Assembly: GCA_964477095.1 (NCBI GenBank)
Contig: CAYZDA010000002.1
Location: 42,259-106,258, forward strand
Direction: 5' to 3'
Source of the DNA: an uncultured Bacteroidales bacterium
GTDB taxonomy: Bacteria; Bacteroidota; Bacteroidia; Bacteroidales; PWNQ01
Length of the DNA stretch: 64,000 nucleotides
The stretch's first letter is position 1, and every line of letters starts with the position of its first letter. Positions 42,740-59,497 of the stretch are shown piece by piece. The translations under genes were made by a program, and so were the position numbers. Under the pieces are notes generated by a model that was not told the DNA's origin, made no database searches, and worked only from the letters and a program-made list of their open reading frames with translations.

Positions 42740-43417
42740 TTACAGCCCCAGGAACCTTATTCCCATGCCGCAGAAAAGAATCAGAAAGCCTGCCAGGGCA
42801 TGGCCGTACCGGGCGAGGTAAGGCAAACGCACCCAATGGATACCATAAAGCGGAAGGAGCACCATTACCAGCATTGTGCCCACCGTAGCCAGGCCAAAAA
42901 CTCCTGCCACCAGCGCCATTCCCAGGATGCTGATTTCAGCGGCAGGAAACATAAGCAGCGGAATGAGCGGCTCGCAGGGGCCAAACAGAAAAACGATAAA
43001 CAGGGCCCACGGGAGCATATCCCTGATCCCACGCATTTTAGCTTTTGATTTCCCTTCAGACATTTTTTCAATTATGGCAGCCTTTTTAGGGAAAAAAGCT
43101 TTGCGCAGGCCCCAAATCATGTAAACCAGGCCAAAAGCTATGATCAGCCAGGCTGTTATCGCACCACGGGCAGATTCAAAGGCTGTTAAACTGCCAAGTT
43201 CATAACTTAGCTTTAAGCCAGCCAGCCCGATTATCACCGAGCTGCCAACATGGGCCAGACCGCAAATGCCAGTTATCCAGGCTGTTTTCCTGATATTCCA
43301 GTTACGCGCTTTTGATACTGCCACAAACGGAATGTAATGATCGGGGCCCAGCAGGGTGTGAATAAATCCAAGGCTGGCTGCTGTTACGAGTAGGATGAAT
43401 AATGGTTCTTCAAACAT
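42740..43417 (-). CDS. putative nickel/cobalt transporter (NicO/UreH-like 6-TM protein)
   Basis: 225 aa, about 6 TM helices. The first helix carries GFIHTLLGPDHY (an H-x5-DH metal motif, close to the HX4DH NiCoT signature). It is the last gene of the hydrogenase cluster. Confidence 0.5.
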   Translation of the reverse strand: MFEEPLFILLVTAASLGFIHTLLGPDHYIPFVAVSKARNWNIRKTAWITGICGLAHVGSSVIIGLAGLKLSYELGSLTAFESARGAITAWLIIAFGLVYMIWGLRKAFFPKKAAIIEKMSEGKSKAKMRGIRDMLPWALFIVFLFGPCEPLIPLLMFPAAEISILGMALVAGVFGLATVGTMLVMVLLPLYGIHWVRLPYLARYGHALAGFLILFCGMGIRFLGL

Positions 43418-43419
43418 AT

Positions 43420-43824
43420 TTACAGATATTTTTTGTATTTCTCCGGAAGATCAAAGTATTTCTCATAACGCTCCTTGTGGAATCCATACTCTTCAACTTC
43501 CTGTTCACTTACCTTATAGGAAACCTCTTCTCCTGCAATTTCTGAAAAGTAGAAGTCATAAATGGAACCATCTTCCTCCATATGGACTTTAACCATATTC
43601 GGCTTTGACTTATCATTAAGCATGGCATGACAAACCGGACAATAGAACTTATACTTCTCCCCCTTCCTGATTTCAAAATCAGAATGGGTGGTTTTATTAT
43701 AATCACCCACACCAGCGCTTAGCAATAGCAGGCCCTGTTCGTTTTTAGGGCTCTTGGTAGAAAAAATGATCTGATCACCTATTCTCAGGTGAGACCTGCA
43801 AATCGGACATAAATAGTTTTTCAT
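43420..43824 (-). CDS. zinc-ribbon hypothetical protein
   Basis: 134 aa. CPICRSH (res 6-9) and CPVCHAM (res about 73-76) form a four-Cys knuckle pair. Its 5' end overlaps the hycI-like gene by 50 nt in another frame. Confidence 0.5.
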   Translation of the reverse strand: MKNYLCPICRSHLRIGDQIIFSTKSPKNEQGLLLLSAGVGDYNKTTHSDFEIRKGEKYKFYCPVCHAMLNDKSKPNMVKVHMEEDGSIYDFYFSEIAGEEVSYKVSEQEVEEYGFHKERYEKYFDLPEKYKKYL

Positions 43825-44290
43825 AATTATAGTATTTGGGGTTTATAGTTGAGTTGTTGAGCAAACTTTCAATGATTGAGTCCGCCACTTTTTTGATTTT
43901 TTCAGATAAGCCGAAACCAAATCCCATTTGCTGGGGTTGTACCCCTAAAATCCAAATTTCCCGGGCTTCGAGGAAACCTGATATGGTCTTGAGTGAAAGG
44001 TTATGAGTATTGGTAGTGCTGTCGTGGATATTCTGCACAGGAAGCAGCTGTGTATAGCCGGGCTCTTTACCAAAATTCACAGCATCAATAAAAACCACAT
44101 AATCCTTCTGTTGAGCATTGATCTTTCCCAGGTAGTTTTCAATGCTGTTTTCTGCCACAATCACTTTGCAACTATGTCTGTTTTTTAGTTCTGCGGCAAT
44201 GTATATTCCTACTCCATCATCATGTTTGATGCGGTTTCCCATTCCAACAAACAAGACTTCATCTCTGCGAAGATTCCTTTGCTTATTCAT
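43775..44290 (-). CDS. hycI: hydrogenase maturation endopeptidase (HycI/HyaD family)
   Basis: VLFVGMGNRIKHDDGVG (the GxGNxxxxDDGxG motif), plus later ...FIDAV... and ...HNLSL... Confidence 0.8.
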   Translation of the reverse strand: MNKQRNLRRDEVLFVGMGNRIKHDDGVGIYIAAELKNRHSCKVIVAENSIENYLGKINAQQKDYVVFIDAVNFGKEPGYTQLLPVQNIHDSTTNTHNLSLKTISGFLEAREIWILGVQPQQMGFGFGLSEKIKKVADSIIESLLNNSTINPKYYNYEKLFMSDLQVSPENR

Positions 44291-44909
44291 CCGGCAATAT
44301 ATTTTTCACCAGTATAGTGTGCAGGCAATTGGGACAAAGAACATTAAAAGTATCCTTTCGTTGCATGCCGTCTACTATAGGTGTTTTGGTTTTTTCCTTA
44401 TCGGCCAGTTTCAGGCTTTGATTCAGAATATTAAGAGTAACAGTAGAAGAATAACCTCCCGGGCCGAGTTTTCTGTGCAGAAACTCCAGATGCTCGCGGG
44501 TGGTAATGATCGCACTGCAGTTTTCACAAAGCAGCAGCTCCTTCTCCTGTATCTCAACAGTATTAGCGTCTTTTCTGTCGAAGGTTACCAGGTCGTATTT
44601 TTTATCCGACAATACAACTCCCTCACCTGTGATGCAATAGGCATGGCATTGCCCGCAAAAAATGCACTTGCCATAGTCGCGGGTGATCACCCTCACAGCC
44701 CGTTCCTTATCATCCTTATATGTGATGGCGTATGACGGACACACATTTGTGCAGGTAGGACATCCAACGCACTTCTCATTGTTCACTTCGGGCTTTCCAC
44801 GGAAACCGTCAAAAGGAATGTGGGGTTCCTTTGGAAATCGAGTAGTGTAGGGAGCAGAAAAAAGTGAAATAACTGCTTCCTTTAATTCACGCATTTTAGG
44901 ATACTTCAT
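44283..44909 (-). CDS. 2x[4Fe-4S] NuoI/MbhN/HycF-like subunit with a Cys-rich C-terminal extension
   Basis: CVGCPTCTNVCP and CIFCGQCHAYC ferredoxin motifs. The tail carries extra CENC...CPNC pairs. Confidence 0.8.
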   Translation of the reverse strand: MKYPKMRELKEAVISLFSAPYTTRFPKEPHIPFDGFRGKPEVNNEKCVGCPTCTNVCPSYAITYKDDKERAVRVITRDYGKCIFCGQCHAYCITGEGVVLSDKKYDLVTFDRKDANTVEIQEKELLLCENCSAIITTREHLEFLHRKLGPGGYSSTVTLNILNQSLKLADKEKTKTPIVDGMQRKDTFNVLCPNCLHTILVKNILPDE

Positions 44910-45223
44910 TTCACTACCTCCTTATAATCATCTTTTACACTTTTTTTACCCAGCGGAATACCGGATATATATGCACCACGCACCAAAGCATGGGCACCGA
45001 CAGTAGCAGTCAGAAACAGCAGCGGGATAGCTATAAGAGCCTTCACTCCCACTTCTACAAACCCATAATGCACCAGCACTCCAAGCAGAATGCTGCAGGT
45101 TCCCAGTGTTACGCATTTTGTAGCCGACTGCAGGCGGTTATAAACATCCGGGAAACGGATGAGGCCTAAACATCCTAAAGAGTTAAAGACTATTCCTGTT
45201 AATATGATAATTGTGCTTAGCAT
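44906..45223 (-). CDS. Mrp/Mnh subunit G-like (MbhC-like)
   Basis: 105 aa. LGLIRFPDVYNRLQSATKCVTLG is the MnhG/PhaG signature. Confidence 0.8.
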   Translation of the reverse strand: MLSTIIILTGIVFNSLGCLGLIRFPDVYNRLQSATKCVTLGTCSILLGVLVHYGFVEVGVKALIAIPLLFLTATVGAHALVRGAYISGIPLGKKSVKDDYKEVVK

Positions 45224-45480
45224 TATTCATTAAGTTTTTTGTTGCTCAGATATTTTGCCAGGGTTAATGTTCCTATAAAACTTAGTATTATCCAGGCAAT
45301 GCCGATATCCAGCAGGAACATCCTGTTGGTGAGTATTCCCAGGATAGCGCATATTCCTACCACCAGAATACCGAAGATATCGATCCCCACCATACGGTCT
45401 GCCACCGTAGGACCACGGATGATGCGATAGAGGCAGGCGACGCACAGGGCAATTTGTATGTACAATAAAGTTTCCAGCAT
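45223..45480 (-). CDS. Mrp/Mnh subunit F-like (MbhB-like)
   Basis: 85 aa, 3 TM. ...YRIIRGPTVADRMVGID... is typical of MnhF. Confidence 0.75.
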   Translation of the reverse strand: MLETLLYIQIALCVACLYRIIRGPTVADRMVGIDIFGILVVGICAILGILTNRMFLLDIGIAWIILSFIGTLTLAKYLSNKKLNE

Positions 45481-45965
45481 CAGTCAAATATTTTTTTGAT
45501 GTATTTTTCAAATCTTCCGGATACCTCACGGCTGTATTTTTCCGGGTCATCGGTTTTTACATATATCCAGTGAACAAATAGCTCATCACCAATAATATCC
45601 ACCGCGATTGTTCCAGGTGTCATGGTGATGGAATTGGCCAGCATGGTTTTTGCAATATCAGATTTCACCTCCAGAGGCACACGCACTATACCGGGTTTAA
45701 TGGGCATTCGGGGATGAATTACACGGTAGGCGACATCAAAATTGGCTTTAAGCACTTCCCATACAAATATAAACAGGTAAATAATGAACCAGAAGTACCG
45801 ATGTGGTTGGATAAGTTTACCAGTACTGCTCACAAAATTGTGTCCGAACAGAAAAACCGCAATTAATGCTGCCAAAGCACCAGTAATGATATTGGGCCAG
45901 CTTAGGTTGAAAGTGATCAGCAACCAGAATATCAGTAAAACTATAAAAGCTACAATGCGCTTCAT
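45480..45965 (-). CDS. Mrp/Mnh subunit E-like (MbhA-like)
   Basis: 161 aa. Two TM helices, then ...ANFDVAYRVIHPRMPIKPGIV...LANSITMTPGT, typical of MnhE. Confidence 0.75.
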   Translation of the reverse strand: MKRIVAFIVLLIFWLLITFNLSWPNIITGALAALIAVFLFGHNFVSSTGKLIQPHRYFWFIIYLFIFVWEVLKANFDVAYRVIHPRMPIKPGIVRVPLEVKSDIAKTMLANSITMTPGTIAVDIIGDELFVHWIYVKTDDPEKYSREVSGRFEKYIKKIFD

Positions 45966-45989
45966 ATTTCATATTTTTTCAGGATCATC

Positions 45990-47528
45990 CTATAATCCTG
46001 TTATTTGCGTTGAATAATCACTCATGCCTATCAGCACATCCACTGCCGGTGTCAATAACACATCCCTGAAAGCCGGAAAAACCAGTAAGCTCATCAAAAG
46101 GCAGAGGATTACCATGGTTATCATGGAGAATTTCATACTAAAAGGCAATTTGTCAGCAAGAAATTGCAATGCTGGATTTTCTTTATTATGAAAGGCGTAT
46201 CTCATAAATTTCATAAAAGATCCCAGCGTCACAAAGTTTACAAAAACAGCCAGAGCCGCGAGCAGGTAAAACTCACCTCTCACTGCGGCAATTATAATGA
46301 GTAGTTTGCTAAAAAAGCCATTAAAGGGCGGGACCCCGGAAATAGCCATGGAAGCTCCAAGGGAGGTAGCAGATGTCACCGGCATTTTCCCTGAGAGCCC
46401 GCCCAACTCACGGAGGTTTCTTGTGCCTGTAAGATATTCCAGTGCTCCAGCATCAAGAAACAACAGGCCTTTAAACAAAGCATGATTAATCAGGTGAAAC
46501 AGACCTCCTGCTATAGCCAACGCAGCGATGGCCCTGTCTCCGTTATTGTGTAGTAATAGCATTCCTATCCCGATACCTATAACCACATAACCCATCTGGC
46601 TGATGCTGTGATAAGCCAATAGCCGTTTCAGGTCCCACTGCCCTATGGCAAGGAATACTCCAATAACCATGGACAATGCACCCAGCACTGTAATAACCAG
46701 GCTGATTTCATACGTAATGGTGAAAATATTAAAGAACAGGCGAATGAGCGCATAGACTCCTACGGCTTTTATTAGCACGCCGGACAGCATAGCAGAAATT
46801 GGCGAGGGAGCAGAAGAATGAGCATCAGGCAGCCAGGCATGAAATGGTATCATGGCAGCTTTTAGCCCGAAACCGGTTATTAACAGCAGCTCAGTAAAGA
46901 TTAAGGCTGTGGAACCGGCCTGGCCTCTTATTAACAGTGATATGTCAGCCAGATTAAGCGTACCCGTTTGCCAGTATAACAAGCCCACTGCCAGTAGAAT
47001 GAGCAAGGAGGCTATTCCACCCAGCACCTGGTATTTGAATGAAGCTTCCAGTTCACGTTTTTCTGTACCAAATGCCACCAGCGCATAAGAAGCAATAACA
47101 GCAATTTCGAGAAAGACGTAAATATTGAAGATGTCTCCTGATAAAACCACACCATTCATCCCGGCTATCATCAGGCATAGCAAGGCATAAAAGTTATTAC
47201 TGCCTGTATATTCCCTAATATATCCCATCGCATAAAAAGCAGAAAGAAAAGCAATGAGGCTAACAACCAACAAAATAAAGGCACTCAAACCATCATAAAC
47301 CAAATAAATGGCAATAGGCACCTGGTTTACCGCCTCCCAACCTCCAATTTTCGTTACCACTGGCAGTGCTGCTCCTTCAATGAAAAACCACAGGTTATAA
47401 AAAACAAGGAAAAGTGTAATTAACACGGTTATTGTTTTCTGAAACCCTTTAATAAAGAATCCCAGTACGGGAATCAGAAAAGCTCCCAGCAGCGGTAAAG
47501 CGACATATAAAACGGGTATCAGTTCCAT
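45990..47528 (-). CDS. antiporter-like subunit, MrpD/NuoM/N/MbhH type
   Basis: 512 aa polytopic protein. ...FHAWLPDAHSSAPSPISAMLSGVLIK... is the proton-conducting-transporter signature. Confidence 0.85.
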   Translation of the reverse strand: MELIPVLYVALPLLGAFLIPVLGFFIKGFQKTITVLITLFLVFYNLWFFIEGAALPVVTKIGGWEAVNQVPIAIYLVYDGLSAFILLVVSLIAFLSAFYAMGYIREYTGSNNFYALLCLMIAGMNGVVLSGDIFNIYVFLEIAVIASYALVAFGTEKRELEASFKYQVLGGIASLLILLAVGLLYWQTGTLNLADISLLIRGQAGSTALIFTELLLITGFGLKAAMIPFHAWLPDAHSSAPSPISAMLSGVLIKAVGVYALIRLFFNIFTITYEISLVITVLGALSMVIGVFLAIGQWDLKRLLAYHSISQMGYVVIGIGIGMLLLHNNGDRAIAALAIAGGLFHLINHALFKGLLFLDAGALEYLTGTRNLRELGGLSGKMPVTSATSLGASMAISGVPPFNGFFSKLLIIIAAVRGEFYLLAALAVFVNFVTLGSFMKFMRYAFHNKENPALQFLADKLPFSMKFSMITMVILCLLMSLLVFPAFRDVLLTPAVDVLIGMSDYSTQITGL

Positions 47529-47530
47529 AG

Positions 47531-47869
47531 TTAACCTCTTAATTCGTTGACCTTTTGTATATCAAAAGTTCCGTATCTTTTATAAATTCTAATGGCTATT
47601 GCCAGCAAAAGAGCTGTGGTAGCTATACCGATAACAATGGCTGTAAGCACCATAGCTTGTGGCAGCGGGTCAACATAAACAGGAGCATTTTCTCCGCTCC
47701 GGATGATGGGTGCAATACCATTATCAACATATCCGATCATGGCCAGAAAAAGGAAGCAACTGAATTCCATCACCGAAAAGCCAATAACAATCTTAATGAG
47801 GTTGCGGCGTGTGAGTACACCATACAAGCCGACTAAGAACAGGATAAAACACATTACATATACATTCAT
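47531..47869 (-). CDS. MrpC/NuoK-like subunit (MbhG-like)
   Basis: 112 aa, 3 TM. LTRRNLIKIVIGFSVME and ...DPLPQAMVLTAIVIG fit MnhC/NuoK. Confidence 0.8.
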   Translation of the reverse strand: MNVYVMCFILFLVGLYGVLTRRNLIKIVIGFSVMEFSCFLFLAMIGYVDNGIAPIIRSGENAPVYVDPLPQAMVLTAIVIGIATTALLLAIAIRIYKRYGTFDIQKVNELRG

Positions 47870-48303
47870 GATGCTACCTCCTCTTTATATATTACCAGCC
47901 CAAGGAAAATGGTGAGCAGTGCTGCAGCCACTTCCACACCAATAAAAATATTGTAGAGTGGAATCAAACCTGCGCTGATTAGTTCTCCCACCGCCCCTTT
48001 GGGCAAATAGTTATTAAAAAACACATAGGAACCATAGAACAGACCTCCCAAAGCCAAAAGAACTACTACGAAAAGGGCCATGCTTTCGGTAATTGATGAC
48101 TGCATCTCCTCCTGATGCAAATTAACCACCTCACTGCCAAAAGCGAGAATCAACAAAATAAAGGATCCGGCAATAATTGCACCCCCGGCAAAACCCCCAC
48201 CGGGAGTAAGATGACCATGGGTGATGATATATACGCCATATATAAATATCACGCTGCCTAGCAGTTGTGCTACTTTCTTTACTATTTCAGTCATTCCGGT
48301 CAT
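47866..48303 (-). CDS. MrpB-like subunit (MbhF-like)
   Basis: 145 aa. ...HGHLTPGGGFAGGAI... is the MnhB-domain signature. Confidence 0.8.
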   Translation of the reverse strand: MTGMTEIVKKVAQLLGSVIFIYGVYIITHGHLTPGGGFAGGAIIAGSFILLILAFGSEVVNLHQEEMQSSITESMALFVVVLLALGGLFYGSYVFFNNYLPKGAVGELISAGLIPLYNIFIGVEVAAALLTIFLGLVIYKEEVAS

Positions 48304-48839
48304 GATGCTTTTTCTTTTTTGCTTTTTGAACGTAAAACAGTCATTACTCCCAGTGCTGCAGTAAACAATATGGTAGCTTCGCCAAGGGTATCATACCCTC
48401 TGAAGTCAAAAAGAACTCCTGTAACCAGATTGGCACTGCCTGTTTGTGAAGCACCATCACTAATATAAAACTCTGACATGCGGATGGTGGAAGACCCGAA
48501 AGGATCAAGAGAACCGGCGAAGGAGGCAAATATCCACCCCAGTAATCCTACAATGACCAGTGAGCTTATGATATTAAGGACTTTGTTTGCATTCCATGCG
48601 TCTTTTATTTCCTGCCGGCTGGAATTAAGAACAACTGCTACCATTATAACCAGTGTAATGGTTTCTATGACGATCTGAACAATAGCCAGATCCGGTGCAC
48701 TCAGGAAGAGAAAACAGATAACCAGGCTGTAACCCACTATACCCTGCGCAATGAGCGCCGACAGCAGATCATGAGCATGCAGCGCATATAAGGCTCCGAT
48801 GATCATAAATCCGATTAATATTGAAAGCAATGTTTCCAT
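48300..48839 (-). CDS. MbhD/MbhE-like (DUF4040, MrpA C-terminal-like) subunit
   Basis: The ORF opens at 48968, but that would overlap the upstream gene. The ATG at 48839 gives METLLSILIGFMIIGAL..APDLAIVQIVIETI.., matching DUF4040. ...VTGVLFDFRGYDTLGEATILF is also typical. Confidence 0.65.
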   Translation of the reverse strand: METLLSILIGFMIIGALYALHAHDLLSALIAQGIVGYSLVICFLFLSAPDLAIVQIVIETITLVIMVAVVLNSSRQEIKDAWNANKVLNIISSLVIVGLLGWIFASFAGSLDPFGSSTIRMSEFYISDGASQTGSANLVTGVLFDFRGYDTLGEATILFTAALGVMTVLRSKSKKEKAS

Positions 48840-48850
48840 ATCTTGTTTTT

Positions 48851-51897: not shown

Positions 51898-51899
51898 CT

Positions 51900-52355
51900 T
51901 TAAAACTTTTTTCTGTAAGGATAAACACCCTGTTCCCAGTTTCCATCAGAAAACAGAGGGATCAGGTTGGGATGGCCTTCGAATTTCACTCCAAGTATTT
52001 CGTGGATTTCCCTTTCAATCCATTCTGCTGCGCTAAACAAATCAGTAAGGGATTTCACTTTAGGATCCTCCTGATGCAGTGTGACATGTAAGTTCACTAT
52101 GTCTCCGCTACTATCGTCGCTAAAATGATAGAATATCTCGATGCCATTTTCAGAGTGCAGCCCAGTGCCTATAATAAAACGGAATCTGAGGTCGCGATAG
52201 AAATATGAAGCTATTTGGTATAAAGCTTCCGGATTCACATAAAAAGTCACACGTCGCTGATCTGTCTGTTTTGTTTCCAGCAGCTCATCAGCGAATCTGT
52301 CCTTTACTAACTTTATGATTGCTTTGTCACTCATATTTTCAGATGGTTTCAGCAA
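51900..52355 (-). CDS. NuoC/MbhK-like subunit
   Basis: 151 aa. ...SLTDLFSAAEWIEREIHEILGVKFEGHP is the 30-kDa (NuoC) family motif. Confidence 0.85.
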   Translation of the reverse strand: MLKPSENMSDKAIIKLVKDRFADELLETKQTDQRRVTFYVNPEALYQIASYFYRDLRFRFIIGTGLHSENGIEIFYHFSDDSSGDIVNLHVTLHQEDPKVKSLTDLFSAAEWIEREIHEILGVKFEGHPNLIPLFSDGNWEQGVYPYRKKF

Positions 52356-52752
52356 GCTTCATTAAAGCCGATAACATAGCCTCGGGTTTTGGCGGGCAGC
52401 CCGGGATATAAGCATCCACGGGAATAATTTTGTCCACGGGCCCGGCAAAGGTATTTCCCTCGGCAAAGATGCCACCCGTGCATCCACAGGCTCCAAAGGC
52501 AACCACGAACACAGGTTTGGCTGTCTGCGCGTAAACCTCCAGCAGACGTGGCTTATCCCGCTTGTTGATGGACCCGTTGACCAGCAGCACATCTGCATGT
52601 CGTGGACTGCCGACCAGCTTCATTCCAAAGCGTTCCACATCATAGCGGGGCGTCAGGCAATCCAGTATTTCGATGTCACAGTTATTGCAGGAGGCTCCGC
52701 CAAAATGGAATACCCAAAGTGATTTTTTCAGACAAAATGATTTTAGTCCCAC
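52339..52752 (-). CDS. [NiFe]-hydrogenase small subunit, NuoB/MbhJ-like
   Basis: Cys ligands of the proximal [4Fe-4S]: GGASCNNCDIE, GACGCTGG and PGCPP. GTG start. Confidence 0.85.
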   Translation of the reverse strand: MGLKSFCLKKSLWVFHFGGASCNNCDIEILDCLTPRYDVERFGMKLVGSPRHADVLLVNGSINKRDKPRLLEVYAQTAKPVFVVAFGACGCTGGIFAEGNTFAGPVDKIIPVDAYIPGCPPKPEAMLSALMKLAETI

Positions 52753-52762
52753 GGCATTAGTT

Positions 52763-53695
52763 TTAAATTCCTAAATAATCCAGCATCAGTCCTGCTATTA
52801 CAAACAGGTTCATCCAGATGAGGAAGAACCGCATGGCCTGTCCGATTTTCAAACGCGGATTGGTATTGCGAATCAGAACCATCAGAATCAGCACCGCCAA
52901 TATTTTCAGTATGGACCACAGTATGTCAAATCCGGCAAAGCGGAGCCCCCCGAAAAATACCTCGGCAGCAAAAACCGGCAGGATAAACAGCAGGATATAT
53001 TTGGTGTATTTGATAATTGCATATGCTGACCCGGAATATTCCATAAACACCCCCTCAGCTATTTCAGTCTCCGCTTCTGCCAGGTCAAAAGGCACAAAGC
53101 CTGCTTTAGCCTGAAGGGTAAACAACAGTGCGATAAACATTAAAACTCCGGACACACTACCGATAAAAGCACCCTGGCTTTGCTGTAGTTGCATAATAGT
53201 ATCAAGACTGATGCTGTTACCTGCTTTCAGGATAACTCCCGCGATTACCAGCAGGAATGTGAGTTCGTAGCTTAATACTAACTTGATTTCACGCGAAGCA
53301 CCCACAGCCGACAGTGGATTTCCTGAGGCAAGAGCACCAGCAATAAACATAAGAGACGGGATCACTAATAGATAGAACAGCACTAGGATGTCACCATGAA
53401 AGCCGGAAGAGATACCCAGGGCCGGCAACAGTATGACAACCGCAGCAGCCGAGGCACCAAATAAGCTTAAAACGGGTGCAAGCAGGAAAAAAACTGCAGA
53501 CCCTTTTTTGGGCAGGATGGTTTCCTTTACCAAAAGTAATTTCAAAAAGTCATAGAATGGCTGCAACAATGGCGGTCCTTTTCTGAACTGCACACGCGCT
53601 GTGACCTTACGATCGGCCCAGGCAAATAAGCCACCTACAATACCGGCAAACAGCATTCCGGGATAAATAAAAAAGTAGAATAAGTTTTCAAGCAT
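52763..53695 (-). CDS. NuoH/MbhM/HycD-like membrane subunit
   Basis: 310 aa, 8 TM. ...RKVTARVQFRKGPP..., FDLAEAETEI and EYSG are NuoH-family motifs. Confidence 0.85.
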   Translation of the reverse strand: MLENLFYFFIYPGMLFAGIVGGLFAWADRKVTARVQFRKGPPLLQPFYDFLKLLLVKETILPKKGSAVFFLLAPVLSLFGASAAAVVILLPALGISSGFHGDILVLFYLLVIPSLMFIAGALASGNPLSAVGASREIKLVLSYELTFLLVIAGVILKAGNSISLDTIMQLQQSQGAFIGSVSGVLMFIALLFTLQAKAGFVPFDLAEAETEIAEGVFMEYSGSAYAIIKYTKYILLFILPVFAAEVFFGGLRFAGFDILWSILKILAVLILMVLIRNTNPRLKIGQAMRFFLIWMNLFVIAGLMLDYLGI

Positions 53696-53696
53696 A

Positions 53697-54197
53697 TTAT
53701 CCTAAATTTTTCAGTTTCTCCCAGGAATGATCTCTTATCAGAATCCCGGGCATCAGTTCATACAGGTTTTTCTGGTCATCCGGTTCTTCGTCGGTAAACC
53801 GGACAGCACCGGACGGGCTGTTATTTATAAATTTCTCCAGCTCCTCACTGTCTTGCAGATCATAATACCATGTCCTGTCCCGCACGTATTCATAAAAATC
53901 GCTCATCATAGTACCAAATGGACAGGCAGCAACACATGATTTACAGGCAACGCAAAGATGGCTTGACCGGATTACCATTCCCTGTTCATCCTTTTTCAAT
54001 GCATCCTCCGGGCAAACATTCACACACGGGGCAACCTTACAGCGCCGGCAGGAATAAGCAAATACTGCCAATTCTCTAAGTGGTTTCAGCCCTCCATTCC
54101 CCTTGTAGTCACGAATAATTCCATCAGGAACTCTGTGGTCGCAGCCGCCCTCGGTACATGCGCGGTATTTCTCCAGATCGATGAGTATTTTTTTCAT
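53697..54197 (-). CDS. 4Fe-4S dicluster ferredoxin-like subunit (HycB/CooF-like)
   Basis: CRRCKVAPCVNVCP and CVACKSCVAACP motifs. It abuts the nuoH-like gene. Confidence 0.8.
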   Translation of the reverse strand: MKKILIDLEKYRACTEGGCDHRVPDGIIRDYKGNGGLKPLRELAVFAYSCRRCKVAPCVNVCPEDALKKDEQGMVIRSSHLCVACKSCVAACPFGTMMSDFYEYVRDRTWYYDLQDSEELEKFINNSPSGAVRFTDEEPDDQKNLYELMPGILIRDHSWEKLKNLG

Positions 54198-54207
54198 CTG
54201 TTAATAA

Positions 54208-54272
54208 TTTTGATTTCAGCGGTTCCCGCTAACGGCGGGATCTATTCCCGTCATTTATGCGGGGGAACTCGC
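54208..54272 (-). repeat. GC-rich structured intergenic element, copy B (internal gap of the hydrogenase cluster)
   Basis: Same 16-mer and GC blocks as copy A, with about 20 extra nt. Local hairpins are TCCCGC-cgtta-GCGGGA and TTCCC...GGGAA (minus-strand sense). It ends 10 nt before the ATG at 54197. Confidence 0.7.
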
Positions 54273-54360
54273 ATGTAGTATACCGCCTGAGGCGGATTAT
54301 GCCAGTTTCATTTCAGTATGAGTATCCTGTGGTTATATTTTAAATATCCACCAGTTTAAT

Positions 54361-55191
54361 CTACAACCAGATGTCAGGCTGATCTTTAATTTCTTCGTAG
54401 GTAAAAACAGGGCCGTCCTTGCACACAAAATACTTACCCATCATGCAGTGTCCGCATTTTCCCAGTCCGCACGACATGTTCTTTTCCATGGACAGGAATA
54501 TCCTGTTCTCAGAATAACCCATGTCCAGCAGCTTCTGCACCCCAAATTTCATCATGACAGGTGGCCCCACCACCACGGCTACAGAATCTTCAATTTTTAC
54601 GTTTATTTCATCCAGCAGACAGGTTACCACCCCCTCGGATTCAGTCCAGGTTTCATCGGCTTTATCTACGCTTCTGAGCACCTCAAACTTATCCACCAAC
54701 CGCAGGTGGTCGATATAACTTTTGTAGATACAGTCTTTTGGTGTTTTGGAGCCATAGCAGAAAACCATTCGTTTTATTTTGTCTTTTTCGGCTTCCAAAT
54801 TATAGATCAGCGAGCGAATTGGAGCAAAGCCGCAGCCACCGCCCAGTATCAGCACTTCCTTATCATACATTTCATCCAAAGGGTATCCCCTGCCGTATGG
54901 TCCGCGGATACCCAGTACTGTGCCCTCTTCCAGCTGGTGGATTTTATCAGTAACAAAACCGGCTTTCATAATGGTAACTTCCAGTTCATCATCGACCAAA
55001 GGCGAAGATGAAGGTGTAAACGGAGCTTCACCCACTCCCTCAAGGATCAGCTCAATAAATTGCCCGGTTTTAAAACTGAAATTGCGTTCGGGTTTTAAAA
55101 CAAAGGTTTTAATTGAGGGTGATTCCTCAATAACTTTTGTCAGGGTGGCCTTTACAGGTTTATACAAGTCAACTTCAGCAGTGGTAATCAT
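54361..55191 (-). CDS. FAD/NAD(P)-binding [2Fe-2S] oxidoreductase subunit (HydG / AsrB / PyrK-like)
   Basis: FNR-fold motifs: EAPFTPSS (RxYS-like), ILGGGCGFAPIRS (NAD(P)-binding) and a C-terminal CGLGKCGHCMMGKYFVCKDGPVF cluster. Confidence 0.8.
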   Translation of the reverse strand: MITTAEVDLYKPVKATLTKVIEESPSIKTFVLKPERNFSFKTGQFIELILEGVGEAPFTPSSSPLVDDELEVTIMKAGFVTDKIHQLEEGTVLGIRGPYGRGYPLDEMYDKEVLILGGGCGFAPIRSLIYNLEAEKDKIKRMVFCYGSKTPKDCIYKSYIDHLRLVDKFEVLRSVDKADETWTESEGVVTCLLDEINVKIEDSVAVVVGPPVMMKFGVQKLLDMGYSENRIFLSMEKNMSCGLGKCGHCMMGKYFVCKDGPVFTYEEIKDQPDIWL

Positions 55192-56198
55192 ACTTCCACA
55201 ATTTGGTTGTGAGTTAATTCCCTGAATAGTTCATTTTTATTTATCTCGCCGATGCATGCTTCAATGCAGCGCCCACATCCGGTGCATGCTTTGGATTCAA
55301 ATTTCAGTGGCTTCCACACATATTTGCACATATAACGGTTGCGAAAGCGCTTTTGCAATGGTCGCAGAGGGTCTTCCCCGGCAGCTACACGCTCAAAGCC
55401 AGGATACTGACAGGTGTCAATGCTTCTTACTTTCTCGAATTCCGGACGCTCGATAAACAGAAAACAGGAGCAGGTAGGACAAATGGCCGAACATGCGCCA
55501 CAGGAAACACAGTTTTCTGAATACTTTTTCCAGATATCCTTACCAGATGCCTCTATCAATGATCCTGTCTTCCTGTAATCGGGCAATTCACTGTTTTTAT
55601 CCTTAAGCTCTTTTACCACTTCTTCCCTAAGATTTTGGATTGCTTTTCTATCCTCACTGTTTATCGGATCATAAGTTCTGATGTGTTCTTTTATAAAATT
55701 GCCGCCCTTTTCTGTTTTTATTGTCAGAACTACCCTGTTGCCGATCTGATTAAGTACCAGATCAGCATTTTCTTCCACATAAGGTTTGAAGCCATAAGTT
55801 GTACAATGACAGTGTTCATTGGTGGAATGACAATCAGTACCTATTAAAATCGTATGATTTCTGTTCCGGCTATATGTGGGATCAATGTATTCCTTATCCA
55901 GATATATTTCATCCAGTATTGACAGAGCACTCAGATCGCAGGAGGGAACGCCCATAATAATCCTTTTTGATTTCCCATTATTCATAAAAAGGTTTTCCCT
56001 TATGGGCAAAAAAAGTGTTTTTAAAGGAGAAACTGGTTTGGGGCAGTTGTAAACGATACCATTTACATTTTCTTTCGTAATAACTGCATACTCAACTTGT
56101 TCATCATATAAACATGGTGCATATACCTGATAATACTGCAGAAGTCTAACCAGTAACGCGTTCCATTTTTCTTTTTCGAGAGTAAAGCCTGAGTCCAT
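55188..56198 (-). CDS. 4Fe-4S subunit (HydB / AsrA-like)
   Basis: CVSCGACSAICPTCSCF and CTGCGRCIEACIGEI motifs in a 336-aa protein. 4-nt overlap with the HydG-like gene. Confidence 0.8.
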   Translation of the reverse strand: MDSGFTLEKEKWNALLVRLLQYYQVYAPCLYDEQVEYAVITKENVNGIVYNCPKPVSPLKTLFLPIRENLFMNNGKSKRIIMGVPSCDLSALSILDEIYLDKEYIDPTYSRNRNHTILIGTDCHSTNEHCHCTTYGFKPYVEENADLVLNQIGNRVVLTIKTEKGGNFIKEHIRTYDPINSEDRKAIQNLREEVVKELKDKNSELPDYRKTGSLIEASGKDIWKKYSENCVSCGACSAICPTCSCFLFIERPEFEKVRSIDTCQYPGFERVAAGEDPLRPLQKRFRNRYMCKYVWKPLKFESKACTGCGRCIEACIGEINKNELFRELTHNQIVEV

Positions 56199-56210
56199 TA
56201 AAGTATATTA

Positions 56211-56228
56211 TTGTGATAGTTTTCACAA
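56211..56228. promoter_or_regulatory. Rex operator (ROP-like box)
   Basis: TTGTGATAGTTTTCACAA matches the TTGTGAAnnnnTTCACAA consensus at 13/14 specified positions. The extended palindrome is ATTGTGA-N6-TCACAAT. It lies 12 nt upstream of the ATG at 56198, in the rex-divergent intergenic region. Confidence 0.65.
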
Positions 56229-59372: not shown

Positions 59373-59497
59373 AAACTGATCATCTGTTCAACGCTTGATA
59401 ATTGTCACTGCCGCCAGAAACCAGTATATTTAGCTGTGAATCACTGCCTGAACGCTATTATTACAATGACTAACAACTAACATAGAGGACAAAAAAT

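What the first reader, a model, noticed from the sequence alone, without database searches (positions are those of the whole stretch)
42740..56198. Group-4 [NiFe] hydrogenase fused in one gene cluster to a HydB/HydG (AsrA/AsrB)-like NAD(P)H module and a complete split Mrp antiporter module
Seen in the sequence:
- 19 co-directional minus-strand genes run from 56198 down to 42740, mostly with 1-8-nt stop/start overlaps (for example 55188/55191, 50701/50704, 48300/48303, 47866/47869, 44906/44909).
- The large subunit keeps both Ni-ligand pairs (RICGICSTSH and DPCYCCTER) and has a 35-residue C-terminal tail. A HycI-type protease is encoded in the same cluster and a full hypFCDEAB set lies next door. 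It therefore looks like a real hydrogenase rather than an Mbx/Nuo-type derivative.
- Equivalents of MrpA (split into a 617-aa gene plus a DUF4040 gene), B, C, D, E, F and G sit between the large-subunit gene and the NuoI-like gene. This order differs from the Pyrococcus mbhA-N order I recall.
- The cluster opens with a 336-aa 2x[4Fe-4S] protein and a 276-aa FNR-fold protein (GGGCGFAP NAD(P) motif, C-terminal CGLGKCGHC [2Fe-2S] motif). That is the beta/gamma architecture of cytosolic sulfhydrogenase and of AsrA/AsrB.

Established knowledge: Mbh-type enzymes are ferredoxin-driven, and the known modular variants add formate dehydrogenase or CODH modules.

Inference: this may be an NAD(P)H-linked, ion-translocating hydrogenase. 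It could make H2 from NAD(P)H at the expense of ion-motive force, or work in reverse. I know of no characterised example, but I cannot exclude that this subtype is already catalogued.
Basis: partly seen in the sequence, partly recalled or inferred. Interest (0 to 1): 0.75.

Follow-up and report, generated by a model that had tools for sequence, protein, structure and literature searches.

The report
Hun-type NAD(P)H-linked membrane hydrogenase operon
A Bacteroidales genome segment carries a conserved operon that joins a membrane-bound nickel-iron hydrogenase to a complete sodium/proton antiporter and a flavoprotein pair that probably handles NAD(P)H; this cluster type was already described from genomes in 2021 as 'Hun', but its function has never been tested.

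Summary
Nineteen co-directional minus-strand genes (56198 to 42740) encode an AsrA/AsrB-like (sulfhydrogenase beta/gamma-like) pair, a HycB-like ferredoxin, a group-4 [NiFe]-hydrogenase core, a full MrpA-G set, a HycF-like subunit, HycI and two accessory proteins.

It is not a new subtype. Gene for gene, and down to the CGIC...CYCC large-subunit signature, it matches the 16-subunit 'Hun' complex named by Glass et al. (2021) in Atribacteria, Bacteroidetes and Kosmotoga. Related clusters were noted in Saganbacteria (2019) and in a 2026 in-silico study that proposed an NADPH link.

The cluster is widespread: at least 594 species-level genomes match the large subunit. In 60 of 62 Bacteroidota loci with enough flank, intact hunAB sits directly upstream of hunC. 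Kosmotoga olearia has the same order, and its published RNA-seq puts hunA and hunB in one transcription unit with the large subunit.

New here:
- A Rex (NADH/NAD+-sensing) repressor gene lies divergently next to the operon, with a perfect Rex operator 13 nt upstream of hunA.
- The 163-nt gap is a lineage-specific insertion, not an operon boundary.

NAD(P)H-coupled, ion-linked H2 evolution is the best-supported mechanism, but it is untested. Ferredoxin-driven or confurcating operation remains possible.

The parts
56211..56228 (.). Rex operator-like perfect palindrome TTGTGAtagtttTCACAA, 13 nt upstream of the hunA start codon
   Evidence: It is the only exact match to TTGTGA-N6-TCACAA in the 64 kb window. 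A box with at most 1 mismatch occurs within 400 nt upstream of hunA in 38/46 related loci that have rex adjacent, against 1/14 without. The consensus TTGTGAAnnnnTTCACAA is given in PMC6391272 and PMC2883068.
56259..56266 (-). Candidate Bacteroidota -7 promoter element TAAATTTG (TAnnTTTG) upstream of hunA
   Evidence: Pattern search. There is no such motif in the hunB-hunC gap. Assigning TAnnTTTG as the Bacteroidetes -7 box rests on my own knowledge and is an inference.
55188..56198 (-). hunA (g1, 336 aa): AsrA / sulfhydrogenase-beta-like multi-[4Fe-4S] protein
   Evidence: Pfam Fer4_22 at 1.3e-21. NCBIfam ShyB 145.6, HydB 127.3 and AsrA 120 bits, all below the equivalog cutoffs. The only PDB hit is P. 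furiosus sulfhydrogenase I beta, 9nez_B, 8.6e-31. 16 Cys are conserved in at least 97% of 65 orthologs.
54361..55191 (-). hunB (g2, 276 aa): FNR-fold FAD/NAD(P)-binding flavoprotein with a C-terminal [2Fe-2S] motif (AsrB / sulfhydrogenase-gamma-like)
   Evidence: Pfam FAD_binding_6, NAD_binding_1 and DHODB_Fe-S_bind. AsrB 211.8 bits (cutoff 288.6) and ShyC 175.5 bits. Best PDB hit is 9nez_C at 2.3e-47. The motifs GEAPFTPSSSP, GIRGPxGRGYP and GGGCGxAP and 4 Cys are near-invariant in 67 orthologs.
54198..54360 (-). 163-nt hunB-hunC spacer with two small GC hairpins; a lineage-specific insertion
   Evidence: The closest relatives L002-L004 have 8-12 nt here. No repeat copies elsewhere. Fold z-score -3.3. 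No Rfam hit. No Rex box or TAnnTTTG.
53697..54197 (-). hunC (g3, 166 aa): HycB/HydN-type 2x[4Fe-4S] electron-wire subunit
   Evidence: Pfam Fer4_11. NCBIfam HydN-like. Best PDB hits are the HDCR subunits HycB4/HycB3 (7qv7); E. coli FHL HycB (7z0s_B) also matches, more weakly. 8 Cys are invariant.
52763..53695 (-). hunD (g4, 310 aa): NuoH/MbhM-like membrane anchor
   Evidence: Pfam NADHdh at 8.7e-63.
52339..52752 (-). hunE (g5, 137 aa): NuoB-like hydrogenase small subunit
   Evidence: Pfam Oxidored_q6 at 1.7e-32. NCBIfam NuoB subfamily 147 bits, above the 116 cutoff.
51900..52334 (-). hunF (g6, 144 aa from the ATG): NuoC-like subunit
   Evidence: Pfam Complex1_30kDa at 1.9e-23. The start codon follows the gene call on the identical contig L001.
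50701..51897 (-). hunG (g7, 398 aa): group-4 [NiFe]-hydrogenase large subunit with the CGIC...CYCC signature and a 35-aa C-terminal extension
   Evidence: Pfam Complex1_49kDa + NiFeSe_Hases. Best PDB hits are MbhL 6cfw_L (1.9e-86) and HycE 7z0s_E (4.8e-81). C65, C68, C357 and C360 are invariant. CYCC occurs in 120/120 close homologs but in only 4/150 50%-cluster representatives.
48851..50704 (-). hunH (g8, 617 aa): MrpA-N/NuoL-like antiporter subunit
   Evidence: Pfam Proton_antipo_M at 1.8e-51. NCBIfam matches run full-length to the NuoL/MrpA models.
48300..48839 (-). hunI (g9, 179 aa): MbhD+MbhE (DUF4040), equivalent to the MrpA C-terminal part
   Evidence: Pfam MbhD and MbhE. Aligns to the MrpA C-terminal regions in NCBIfam. 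Start as called on L001.
47866..48303 (-). hunJ (g10): MrpB-like
   Evidence: Pfam MnhB at 4.1e-23.
47531..47869 (-). hunK (g11): MrpC/NuoK-like
   Evidence: Pfam Oxidored_q2 at 9.5e-30.
45990..47528 (-). hunL (g12, 512 aa): MrpD-like antiporter subunit
   Evidence: Pfam Proton_antipo_M at 2.8e-65.
45480..45965 (-). hunM (g13): MrpE-like
   Evidence: Pfam MNHE at 2.3e-45.
45223..45480 (-). hunN (g14): MrpF-like
   Evidence: Pfam MrpF_PhaF at 8e-14.
44906..45223 (-). hunO (g15): MrpG-like
   Evidence: Pfam PhaG_MnhG_YufB at 1.5e-22; TIGR01300 84 bits, above the 63.1 cutoff.
44283..44909 (-). hunP (g16, 208 aa): NuoI/HycF-like 2x[4Fe-4S] subunit with four extra conserved Cys
   Evidence: Best PDB hit is FHL HycF 7z0s_F (4.4e-18), then MbhN. 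8+4 Cys are conserved in at least 98% of 56 orthologs.
43775..44290 (-). hycI-type large-subunit maturation endopeptidase (g17)
   Evidence: TIGR00072 85.7 bits, above the 47.45 cutoff. Pfam HycI. Follows hunP in Bacteroidota and in Kosmotoga.
43420..43824 (-). g18 (134 aa): conserved CxxC...CPxCH zinc-ribbon-like protein of unknown role
   Evidence: No family hit. Found after hycI in 40 loci, all Bacteroidota among those checked; absent in Kosmotoga.
42740..43417 (-). g19 (225 aa): polytopic membrane protein, borderline DsbD_2; a possible metal transporter
   Evidence: Pfam DsbD_2 24.7 bits against a cutoff of 24.9. Present in only 5 related loci. The function is an inference.
56446..57087 (+). 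rex: NADH/NAD+-sensing transcriptional repressor, first gene of the divergent rex-hyp operon
   Evidence: NCBIfam NF003996 188.3 bits, above the 138 cutoff. Pfam Put_DNA-bind_N + CoA_binding. Divergent from hunA in 46 of the 60 loci scored for it.
57090..62802 (+). hypF, hypC, hypD, hypE, hypA, hypB: [NiFe] maturation genes
   Evidence: Pfam hits for all six.

Best explanation
**What it is.** This is a Bacteroidales copy of the 'Hun' complex. It is a roughly 16-subunit membrane enzyme built from four modules:
- a group-4 [NiFe]-hydrogenase core (HunD-G and HunP);
- a complete Mrp-type cation/proton antiporter (HunH-O);
- a HycB-like iron-sulfur wire (HunC);
- a distal flavoprotein pair (HunA, HunB) homologous to the NADPH-oxidising beta/gamma subunits of Pyrococcus sulfhydrogenase I and to AsrA/AsrB.

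**Proposed electron path (inferred).** NAD(P)H -> FAD and [2Fe-2S] of HunB -> the [4Fe-4S] clusters of HunA -> two clusters of HunC -> two clusters of HunP -> the proximal cluster of HunE -> the Ni-Fe site of HunG, where protons are reduced to H2.

**Energetics.** NADH -> H2 is uphill by about 18 kJ/mol under standard conditions (established knowledge). The Mrp module would therefore let ions flow inward to drive H2 evolution at ordinary H2 pressures. At very low H2, or running in reverse as H2 -> NAD(P)+, it would conserve energy.

**Regulation.** Expression is controlled by the adjacent Rex repressor. The operon would be switched on when NADH/NAD+ is high, which fits a role in disposing of excess reducing equivalents as H2.

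**Shown and inferred.** Shown: gene content, cofactor motifs, operon membership, phyletic conservation, the rex/operator association, and co-transcription in Kosmotoga. Inferred: the subunit contacts, NAD(P)H as substrate, the direction of the reaction, and ion coupling.
For: - **Identity with Hun.** Same gene order hunA-P and the same CGIC...CYCC motif as described in 10.1101/536078.
- **The module belongs to the operon.**
  - Intact hunA+hunB sit directly upstream of hunC in 60/62 Bacteroidota loci; the other two hold truncated or frameshifted hunA.
  - hunB-hunC spacing is 8-34 nt in about half of the loci, and 8-12 nt in the closest relatives.
  - K. olearia has the same order with 4-nt overlaps.
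  - HunA/B/C identities fall in step with the core across L003, L058, L084, L086 and L087.
  - K. olearia RNA-seq places Kole_0568-0575 (large subunit to HunA) in one transcription unit, with parallel RPKM values.
- **Nucleotide link.**
  - Best solved homologs are sulfhydrogenase I beta/gamma, 9nez_B (8.6e-31) and 9nez_C (2.3e-47). PMC13582414 describes these subunits as involved in NADPH oxidation.
  - The FAD motif, the GGGCGxAP NAD(P) motif and the [2Fe-2S] cysteines are near-invariant in 67 orthologs.
  - The cluster contains no AsrC and no soluble hydrogenase alpha/delta partner.
- **Wiring.** Among solved structures HunC is closest to HycB-type wire subunits (HDCR HycB4/3; FHL HycB more weakly) and HunP to FHL HycF. 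This is the arrangement that docks a substrate module in formate hydrogenlyase.
- **Regulation.** rex scores above its curated cutoff. A unique perfect operator lies 13 nt upstream of hunA. Box and gene co-occur across loci.
Against: - No biochemical or genetic study of any Hun complex turned up in the library searches.
- The authors who named Hun proposed ferredoxin, not NAD(P)H, as donor.
- Rex also represses a ferredoxin-dependent membrane [NiFe]-hydrogenase in Caldicellulosiruptor bescii (PMC6391272). Rex control therefore does not prove that NADH is the substrate.
- NADH versus NADPH specificity cannot be read from the sequence. The conserved Ser-Lys after the second beta-strand of the nucleotide-binding domain hints at NADPH, whereas Rex senses NADH.
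- HunA and HunB score well below the curated cutoffs of the ShyB/C, HydB/G and AsrA/B models. They form a separate subfamily whose substrate could differ.
- In K. olearia the cluster is only weakly expressed on pyruvate (RPKM about 40-200, against about 1900 for the [FeFe] hydrogenase).
- Subunit contacts were not modelled, because no multimer prediction was available.
Confidence: 0.55

Rival explanations
1. Ferredoxin-driven Hun, the model of Glass et al. Reduced ferredoxin donates electrons to HunABC (or directly to HunP/HunC). Electrons flow to the Ni-Fe site, and H2 evolution pumps H+/Na+ outward as in Pyrococcus MBH. HunB's flavin and nucleotide site would be a relic or a minor side entry.
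For: - Proposed in 10.1101/536078.
- The large subunit is closest to the ferredoxin-dependent MbhL among solved structures.
- HydDB reportedly files HunG under the 'ferredoxin-coupled' group 4g.
- Rex-controlled, ferredoxin-dependent membrane hydrogenases exist.
- Fermenting Bacteroidales make reduced ferredoxin through PFOR (own knowledge).
Against: - The FAD and NAD(P) motifs of HunB are under strong purifying selection from Bacteroidota to Thermotogota. That is hard to explain for a relic.
- The homologs HunAB most resembles use NAD(P)H: sulfhydrogenase gamma, and AsrB and PyrK (own knowledge).
- MBH and Ech need no such module to accept ferredoxin.
- HunC would cap HunP in the way HycB caps HycF (inference).
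Confidence: 0.2
2. Electron-confurcating or bifurcating membrane hydrogenase. Electrons from NAD(P)H (through HunB) and from reduced ferredoxin or another low-potential donor (through HunC or HunP) converge on the Ni-Fe site. This makes NAD(P)H oxidation to H2 feasible, with the Mrp module tuning the energetics.
For: - PMC13582414 proposed bifurcation/confurcation for sister clusters that carry SHI-beta/gamma homologs plus an Fdh-like subunit, from AlphaFold3 models with a three-way branched cluster chain.
- Such a variant was recovered here (L086).
- Thermodynamically it solves the uphill NADH -> H2 step without needing ion influx.
Against: - The window's cluster and all 62 Bacteroidota loci checked lack the Fdh-like third branch.
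- FNR/PyrK-type flavoproteins are not known bifurcating sites (own knowledge).
- A complete Mrp module would be superfluous if confurcation alone balanced the energetics.
Confidence: 0.12
3. Physiological H2 uptake. The same enzyme runs mainly as an energy-conserving H2:NAD(P)+ oxidoreductase. It pumps ions while making NAD(P)H from environmental H2.
For: - H2 -> NAD+ is exergonic by about 18 kJ/mol under standard conditions, enough for about one translocated ion (established knowledge).
- Sulfhydrogenase I is reversible, going by the title of Xiao et al. 2025 as listed in the references of PMC13582414.
- Many host MAGs come from H2-rich sediments and digesters (record titles).
Against: - Rex derepresses its targets when NADH/NAD+ is high, which is the wrong signal for an NADH-producing enzyme (the logic is own knowledge).
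- Group-4 enzymes are generally H2-evolving.
- The hosts are fermenters.
Confidence: 0.1
4. HunAB is a terminal reductase module, not a donor module. It would reduce polysulfide/S0 or another acceptor, as reported in vitro for the sulfhydrogenase beta/gamma subunits. The complex would then be an H2- or ferredoxin-linked sulfur reductase.
For: Homology to the sulfhydrogenase beta/gamma subunits and to AsrAB of the sulfite reductase. The literature on sulfhydrogenase sulfur reductase activity is cited in PMC8542988.
Against: - No AsrC/siroheme subunit is present.
- The Ni ligands and HycI maturation are retained, so H2 chemistry is the catalytic end.
- No sulfur-metabolism genes are present in the cluster or among the neighbouring genes that were scanned.
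Confidence: 0.04
5. hunA and hunB encode an independent soluble oxidoreductase that merely neighbours the hydrogenase.
For: The 163-nt spacer with hairpins between hunB and hunC. One public assembly breaks exactly there.
Against: - The spacer is absent in the closest relatives (8-12 nt), and hunB and hunC overlap by 4 nt in Kosmotoga.
- No promoter motif or Rex box lies in the gap.
- Synteny holds in 60/62 loci and across phyla.
- The genes share a transcription unit in K. olearia.
- There is no catalytic partner for an AsrAB-like pair.
Confidence: 0.03

Closest known systems
Hun complex (hunA-P) of Atribacteria, Firmicutes, Omnitrophica, Elusimicrobia, Bacteroidetes and Kosmotoga; Glass et al., bioRxiv 10.1101/536078
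   Same: The same 16 genes in the same order: AsrA-like, AsrB-like, Fe-S protein, NuoH, NuoB, NuoC, large subunit, Mrp genes, NuoI. The same CGIC...CYCC large-subunit motif. No AsrC. Already reported in Bacteroidetes.
   Different: - The published description is purely genomic and assumes ferredoxin as the donor.
- This copy adds hycI, a Zn-ribbon gene and a membrane-protein gene downstream, plus a divergent rex-hyp operon with a Rex operator and a 163-nt hunB-hunC insertion. None of these appears in the Hun section of that paper that I read; I did not check the rest of the text.
Pyrococcus furiosus membrane-bound hydrogenase MBH (PDB 6CFW; HydDB group 4d)
   Same: It is the closest solved large subunit (MbhL, 1.9e-86). 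The Mrp-derived membrane arm, the NuoB/C/D/H/I-like peripheral module and the MbhD/MbhE domains are all present.
   Different: - MBH has no HunABC module and takes electrons from ferredoxin.
- MBH has one large antiporter-like subunit, whereas Hun has two (MrpA-like 617 aa and MrpD-like 512 aa).
- The gene order differs: Mrp genes come first in mbhA-N (own knowledge).
E. coli formate hydrogenlyase FHL-1 (PDB 7Z0S; group 4a) and Thermococcus Fdh/CODH-Mrp-Mbh (group 4b)
   Same: The same modular logic: a HycF-like subunit (HunP; best PDB hit 7z0s_F) plus a HycB-like wire subunit (HunC; 7z0s_B among its hits) connect a soluble substrate module to the hydrogenase. HycE is the second-best large-subunit hit. 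There is a C-terminal extension cleaved by HycI.
   Different: The substrate module is a flavoprotein/Fe-S pair instead of a molybdopterin formate dehydrogenase or CODH. FHL-1 has no complete Mrp set.
Sulfhydrogenase I beta/gamma (HydB/HydG) of P. furiosus (PDB 9NEZ; group 3b) and anaerobic sulfite reductase AsrA/AsrB
   Same: These are the best, or only, solved homologs of HunA and HunB (8.6e-31 and 2.3e-47). The cysteine clusters, the FAD and NAD(P) motifs and the [2Fe-2S] motif are shared.
   Different: - Scores are far below the curated equivalog cutoffs (for example 145.6 against 690 for ShyB, and 211.8 against 288.6 for AsrB).
- The partner is a membrane group-4 hydrogenase reached through HunC, not a soluble alpha/delta hydrogenase or AsrC.
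Fdh-like + SHI-beta/gamma group-4 clusters (Saganbacteria RX5A, PMC6349859; 'group 4b' clusters in PMC13582414)
   Same: asrA/asrB-like (SHI-beta/gamma-like) genes lie upstream of a cooF/hycB-like gene and an Mrp-linked hydrogenase. A link to NADPH has been proposed in silico. One example was recovered here (L086, large subunit 57-59% identical).
   Different: Those clusters carry a molybdopterin-type protein between HunB and HunC, often without the catalytic Cys/Sec, and the large subunit may be fused to NuoC. The window's cluster has no such gene.
Respiratory complex I (NADH:quinone oxidoreductase)
   Same: An NAD(P)H-oxidising flavoprotein module, an Fe-S chain, a NuoB/C/D/H/I core and antiporter-like subunits: the same overall logic of nucleotide oxidation coupled to ion movement.
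   Different: - The nucleotide module is unrelated to NuoEFG: an FNR/PyrK-fold protein with FAD (inferred from the FNR/PyrK fold) rather than NuoF with FMN.
- The acceptor is H+ at an intact Ni-Fe site rather than quinone.
- The membrane arm is of the Mrp/MBH type.

Membership tests
[quoted passage not shown] | Large subunit with two CxxC Ni-Fe ligand pairs (L1 and L2 motifs) | tested here: met
   RICGICSTSH (C65, C68) and DPCYCCTER (C357, C360). All four Cys are invariant in 11 aligned homologs.
[quoted passage not shown] | NuoB-like small subunit, NuoC-, NuoH- and NuoI-like subunits encoded alongside the large subunit | tested here: met
   Pfam Oxidored_q6, Complex1_30kDa, NADHdh and 2x Fer4.
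[quoted passage not shown] | Maturation: C-terminal extension, a specific endopeptidase and Hyp proteins | tested here: met
   A 35-aa tail after the L2 motif. HycI scores above the TIGR00072 cutoff. hypFCDEAB lies adjacent.
[quoted passage not shown] | HydDB subgroup (4a-4i) assignment | not testable with these tools
   The HydDB classifier is not available here. The literature gives group 4g for HunG and group 4b for the Fdh-like sister clusters. PMC13582414 finds 4g polyphyletic.
Hun complex (Glass et al.) | 16-gene order hunA-P: AsrA-like, AsrB-like, Fe-S, NuoH, NuoB, NuoC, large subunit, 8 Mrp-type genes, NuoI | tested here: met
   g1-g16 follow this order exactly. The same order is found in K. 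olearia, one of the hosts named for Hun.
Hun complex (Glass et al.) | HunG motif CGIC...CYCC, distinct from other group-4 enzymes | tested here: met
   Present in the window. Found in 120/120 close homologs and in only 4/150 50%-identity cluster representatives.
Hun complex (Glass et al.) | AsrAB-like pair without AsrC | tested here: met
   None of the 19 proteins has a NIR_SIR/siroheme domain.
Mrp-Mbh type (P. furiosus MBH-like, HydDB group 4d) | Mrp antiporter subunits integrated with the hydrogenase | tested here: met
   MrpA (split in two), B, C, D, E, F and G equivalents.
Mrp-Mbh type (P. furiosus MBH-like, HydDB group 4d) | Ferredoxin as the sole electron donor, with no extra oxidoreductase module | tested here: not met
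   An additional HunABC module is conserved in the operon. The actual donor cannot be tested in silico.
Sulfhydrogenase (group 3b) beta/gamma subunits | Score above the curated equivalog cutoffs; partnered with soluble alpha/delta hydrogenase subunits | tested here: not met
   ShyB 145.6 against 690; HydB 127.3 against 750; ShyC 175.5 against 600; HydG 163.2 against 650. No group-3 alpha/delta genes are in the cluster.
Anaerobic sulfite reductase AsrAB(C) | Score above the TIGR02910/TIGR02911 cutoffs; asrC present | tested here: not met
   120 against 323 and 211.8 against 288.6. There is no asrC.
Formate hydrogenlyase (group 4a/4b) | Molybdopterin formate dehydrogenase subunit associated with HycB/HycF | tested here: not met
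   HycB-like and HycF-like subunits are present, but no molybdopterin gene is in the cluster. Such a gene is present in the sister variant L086.
Rex regulon | Rex protein above the family cutoff, plus a TTGTGAAnnnnTTCACAA-type operator upstream of the target | tested here: met
   NF003996 188 bits, above the 138 cutoff. There is a unique exact palindrome at 56211-56228. Box and gene co-occur in 38/46 loci with rex against 1/14 without. Binding itself was not tested.
NAD(P)H-dependent hydrogenase (functional class) | NAD(P)H-dependent H2 evolution, or H2-dependent NAD(P)+ reduction | not testable with these tools
   Only the sequence motifs (FAD and GGGCGxAP) and the homology to NADPH-oxidising SHI gamma are available.

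The most novel reading that the evidence does not exclude
Hun is a complex-I-like machine whose electron acceptor is the proton: a membrane-bound [NiFe]-hydrogenase that oxidises NAD(P)H directly through an FNR-type flavoprotein. It would use (or, at low H2, generate) a Na+/H+ gradient through a full Mrp module. In Bacteroidales it would be switched on by Rex when NADH accumulates. It would then be the main route by which hundreds of environmental Bacteroidales species dispose of glycolytic NADH as H2, without a confurcating [FeFe] hydrogenase or a separate Rnf+Ech pair. My searches turned up no enzyme of this kind that has been characterised biochemically.
Probability: 0.45. Interest if true: 0.8.

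Novelty: new member of a known kind. Interest (0 to 1): 0.45.

Why it matters
**The open question.** How strict fermenters re-oxidise NADH to H2 against an unfavourable potential is a central problem in anaerobic bioenergetics. The known solutions are electron-confurcating [FeFe] hydrogenases, or reverse Rnf combined with a ferredoxin hydrogenase. A single membrane complex that couples NAD(P)H oxidation, proton reduction and ion flux would be a third solution. It would also be a living analogue of the step from membrane hydrogenases to complex I.

**Why it is worth testing.** At least 594 species-level genomes match the large-subunit signature used in the scan, including abundant sediment, digester and wetland Bacteroidales. 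Its function therefore bears on models of H2 flux in anoxic ecosystems.

**What this analysis adds to the published description.**
- It shows that the family is under Rex control in Bacteroidota.
- It shows that hunAB is an integral, co-transcribed part of the operon.
- It identifies cultured hosts for experiments: Labilibacter sediminis CG51 and Kosmotoga olearia TBF 19.5.1.
- It identifies natural modular variants (without Mrp, with an Fdh-like subunit, with a cNMP-binding protein) that can guide those experiments.

Tried and rejected
- **The gap as an operon boundary or regulatory RNA: rejected.**
  - The gap is absent in the closest relatives.
  - It has no promoter motif or Rex box and no Rfam hit.
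  - It has no repeat copies elsewhere, and only a moderate fold z-score of -3.3.
- **The gap as a remnant of the cNMP-binding gene found at this position in 22 relatives.** tblastn gave only insignificant hits. Not supported.
- **The sigma-70 promoter and terminator scan** was no better than shuffled sequence (37 against 31.9 sites; 19 against 15.3 sites), so it was not used.
- **Literature searches for biochemical characterisation** of Hun or of any NAD(P)H-dependent group-4 hydrogenase found none. The Moorella and Effluviviacota papers that came up were irrelevant.
- **Apparent absence of hunA in two loci (L022, L067).** This turned out to be truncation or frameshifts, with remnants still present.
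- **A more distant large-subunit relative (L088, 44-45% identity)** has a Nuo-like archaeal layout without HunAB. It marks the outer limit of the association.
- **Not attempted:**
  - multimer structure prediction (no tool);
  - HydDB classification (no tool);
  - single-chain AlphaFold of HunA/B, judged to add little to E-values of 1e-31 to 1e-47 against 9NEZ.

Full report
**1.

The ORF table shows 19 co-directional minus-strand ORFs from 56198 to 42740, with the stated 4-nt overlaps. Pfam and NCBIfam scans give the following assignments:
- g1 (55188-56198): Fer4_22, similar to ShyB/HydB/AsrA.
- g2 (54361-55191): FAD_binding_6 + NAD_binding_1 + DHODB_Fe-S_bind, similar to AsrB/HydG.
- g3: a HydN/HycB-type 2x[4Fe-4S] protein.
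- g4-g7: NuoH-, NuoB-, NuoC- and NuoD-like.
- g8-g15: the N-terminal part of MrpA, MbhD+MbhE (the C-terminal part of MrpA), and MrpB, C, D, E, F and G.
- g16: NuoI/HycF-like.
- g17: a HycI protease, above its curated cutoff.
- g18: a Zn-ribbon-like protein with no family match.
- g19: a borderline DsbD_2 membrane protein.

The large subunit carries RICGICSTSH and DPCYCCTER, followed by 35 residues. All four ligand cysteines are invariant in homologs. hypFCDEAB lies on the other strand at 57090-62802.

There are minor corrections. g9 and g6 probably start at 48839 and 52334, as called on an identical public contig. g1 has 16 conserved cysteines, not 8.

**2.

The first gene of the divergent hyp operon (56446-57087) is a Rex redox-sensing repressor: NF003996 scores 188 bits against a cutoff of 138. 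The only exact TTGTGA-N6-TCACAA palindrome in the 64-kb window lies at 56211-56228. That is 13 nt upstream of the g1 start codon and downstream of a TAAATTTG Bacteroidota-type -7 motif.

**3. The organism and how common this is.**

The large subunit is 73-87% identical to proteins from many Bacteroidales, Rikenellaceae and Marinilabiliaceae MAGs, and from the isolate Labilibacter sediminis CG51. Of these, 594 were confirmed as relatives. Flanking genes in the window, such as PorP/SprF, fit Bacteroidota.

**4. The flavoprotein pair belongs to the operon.**

- Sixty-two Bacteroidota loci have at least 4.6 kb upstream of the large subunit. In 60 of them, intact g1 and g2 lie directly upstream of g3. 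The other two carry truncated or frameshifted g1.
- The g2-g3 spacing is bimodal. It is 8-121 nt in 39 loci. It is about 460-670 nt in 23 loci, and 22 of those hold a 151-155-aa cyclic-nucleotide-binding-domain ORF at that position.
- The three closest relatives have only 8-12 nt. The window's 163-nt spacer is therefore a private insertion. It has no promoter motif, no Rex box, no Rfam match and no repeat copies.
- Kosmotoga olearia TBF 19.5.1 (large subunit about 60% identical) has the same 17-gene order with 4-nt overlaps throughout.
- Identities of HunA, HunB and HunC fall in step with the core subunits across increasingly distant loci.
- The published K. olearia RNA-seq puts Kole_0568-0575 (large subunit through HunC, HunB and HunA) in one transcription unit with parallel RPKM values (PMC5674127 supplement).

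**5. It is already catalogued.**

- Glass et al. (bioRxiv 10.1101/536078) described a 16-subunit 'Hun' operon. It comprises HunAB (AsrAB-like), HunC (Fe-S), HunD-G (NuoH, NuoB, NuoC, large subunit), HunH-O (Mrp) and HunP (NuoI).
- They reported it in Atribacteria, Firmicutes, Omnitrophica, Elusimicrobia, Bacteroidetes and Kosmotoga. It carries a diagnostic CGIC...CYCC motif, and HydDB classed it as a distant group 4g.
- The window matches gene for gene. CYCC occurs in 120/120 close homologs, but in only 4/150 cluster representatives of the wider family.
- Earlier, Matheus Carnevali et al. (PMC6349859) noted asrA-like, asrB-like and cooF-like genes, plus a molybdopterin protein, next to an Mrp-Mbh in Saganbacteria.
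- In 2026, PMC13582414 tied homologs of sulfhydrogenase-I beta/gamma in 'group 4b' clusters to NADPH. From AlphaFold3 models it proposed bifurcation or confurcation.
- My searches found no biochemical work on any of these.

**6. Mechanism.**

*Homologs of the flavoprotein pair.*
- The closest solved homologs of HunA and HunB are the beta and gamma subunits of P. furiosus sulfhydrogenase I: 9nez_B at 8.6e-31 and 9nez_C at 2.3e-47.
- In 65-67 orthologs spanning two phyla, several features of HunB are near-invariant. These are the FAD motif (GEAPFTPSSSP, GIRGPxGRGYP), the NAD(P) motif (GGGCGxAP), a YGsKtP segment and the four [2Fe-2S] cysteines.
- The same holds for 16 Cys in HunA, 8 in HunC and 8+4 in HunP.

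*Wiring.*
- Among solved structures HunC is closest to HycB-type wire subunits. The HDCR subunits HycB4/3 score best, and FHL HycB matches more weakly. HunP is closest to FHL HycF.
- The peripheral arm is therefore built like formate hydrogenlyase, with HunAB in the place of the formate dehydrogenase.
- The most economical reading is a linear chain: NAD(P)H, FAD, [2Fe-2S], the [4Fe-4S] clusters of HunA, HunC, HunP and HunE, and then Ni-Fe.

*Energetics (established knowledge).*
- NADH (-320 mV) to H2 (-414 mV) costs about 18 kJ/mol.
- It becomes favourable only below roughly 1e-3 atm H2.
- A full Mrp set with two large antiporter-like subunits, one more than MBH, could supply that energy by ion influx. 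It could conserve energy when the reaction runs downhill, or in reverse.

*Regulation.* Rex derepression at high NADH/NAD+ fits an NADH-relieving, H2-evolving role. A Rex box with at most 1 mismatch accompanies 38/46 loci that have rex adjacent, against 1/14 without.

**7. Caveats and rivals.**

- Rex also controls a ferredoxin-dependent Ech in C. bescii (PMC6391272), so the Rex link is suggestive and not decisive.
- The authors who named Hun assumed ferredoxin as the donor.
- HunA and HunB fall well below the curated cutoffs for ShyB/C, HydB/G and AsrA/B. They form their own subfamily.
- NADH versus NADPH is unresolved.
- K. olearia expresses the cluster only weakly on pyruvate, a substrate that yields no NADH. 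That is compatible with the model but is not evidence for it.
- Confurcation is plausible for the Fdh-like variant (L086), but the Bacteroidota clusters lack that third branch.
- A sulfur-reductase role and independent function of hunAB are both unlikely.

**8. Modularity seen in relatives.**

- L086 (large subunit 57-59% identical, fused to NuoC) inserts a 535-aa molybdopterin-binding protein between HunB and HunC.
- L087 (47%) has HunABC with only NuoH, B, C, D and I and no Mrp genes. It sits next to rnf.
- L088 (44-45%) has no HunAB.

The HunABC module therefore travels with the catalytic core, with or without the Mrp module.

**9. Verdict.**

- It is a new member of a known but functionally untested kind. 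Interest is moderate, at 0.45.
- If NAD(P)H-driven, ion-coupled H2 evolution were demonstrated, it would be a notable addition to anaerobic bioenergetics.

Noticed in passing
window 56446-57087 (+) and 56211-56228: A Rex redox-sensing repressor gene heads the divergent hyp operon. A perfect Rex-box palindrome sits 13 nt upstream of hunA. Across related loci, the box and the rex gene co-occur (38/46 loci with rex against 1/14 without). I found no mention of a Rex link in the parts of the Hun paper that I read.
   Followed up: yes
L011, L013, L016, L023 and 18 other loci, between hunB and hunC (for example L011, about 55-510 nt downstream of the end of hunB): In 22 of 62 Bacteroidota Hun loci, a 151-155-aa stand-alone cyclic-nucleotide-binding-domain protein (PF00027, 1.7e-10) is inserted between hunB and hunC. 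This is the same position where other phyla carry an Fdh-like gene. It is absent from the window, and no remnant was detectable.
   Followed up: partly
window 54198-54360: The 163-nt hunB-hunC spacer is a private insertion with two GC-rich hairpins (ccgcctcaggcgg; cccgccgttagcggg). Its fold z-score is -3.3. An independent public assembly of the identical sequence (L001) breaks inside it. Its origin is unknown.
   Followed up: partly
window 43420-43824 (-): g18 is a 134-aa protein with a conserved CxxC...CPxCH motif and no family match. It follows hycI in 40 loci, all Bacteroidota among those checked, but not in Kosmotoga. It may be a lineage-specific maturation or accessory factor.
   Followed up: partly
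window 42740-43417 (-): g19 is a 225-aa polytopic membrane protein. It is a borderline DsbD_2 match (24.7 bits against a cutoff of 24.9) and has an N-terminal H-x6-DH motif. It is present in only 5 related loci. It may be a nickel or other metal transporter, but that is an inference only.
   Followed up: no
window 44283-44909 (-), residues C128, C131, C192, C195: HunP carries four extra cysteines (CxxC...CxxC) beyond the two [4Fe-4S] motifs, conserved in at least 98% of 56 orthologs. This suggests an additional metal site that the shorter MbhN (139 aa) does not span.
   Followed up: no
L087 5808-12011: A distant relative (large subunit 47% identical) has HunA-, HunB- and HunC-like genes attached to a minimal Ech-sized core (NuoH, B, C, D, I) with no Mrp genes at all. 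It lies next to rnf genes. This is a natural Mrp-less version of the same idea.
   Followed up: partly
L086 1666-11209: A variant with a 535-aa molybdopterin-binding (Fdh-like) protein between HunB and HunC, and a NuoC-large-subunit fusion with a CYSC motif. It corresponds to the Saganbacteria and 'group 4b' clusters in the literature.
   Followed up: partly
L084 (Kosmotoga olearia CP001634, 608398-629606): In the published K. olearia annotation, the gene next to the large subunit (Kole_0567, carrying Pfam MrpA-, MnhB- and MbhD-type domains) is labelled a pseudogene. That label splits the RNA-seq transcription units in two (Kole_0555-0566 and Kole_0568-0575). The assembly copy read here shows separate intact genes at that position (599, 178 and 152 aa).
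   Followed up: no
window 13759-13832 (+); 33293-34369 (-); 41387-42511 (+): Ordinary context: one tRNA gene, a type IX secretion PorP/SprF gene (consistent with Bacteroidota), and dnaN immediately downstream of the cluster on the opposite strand.
   Followed up: no
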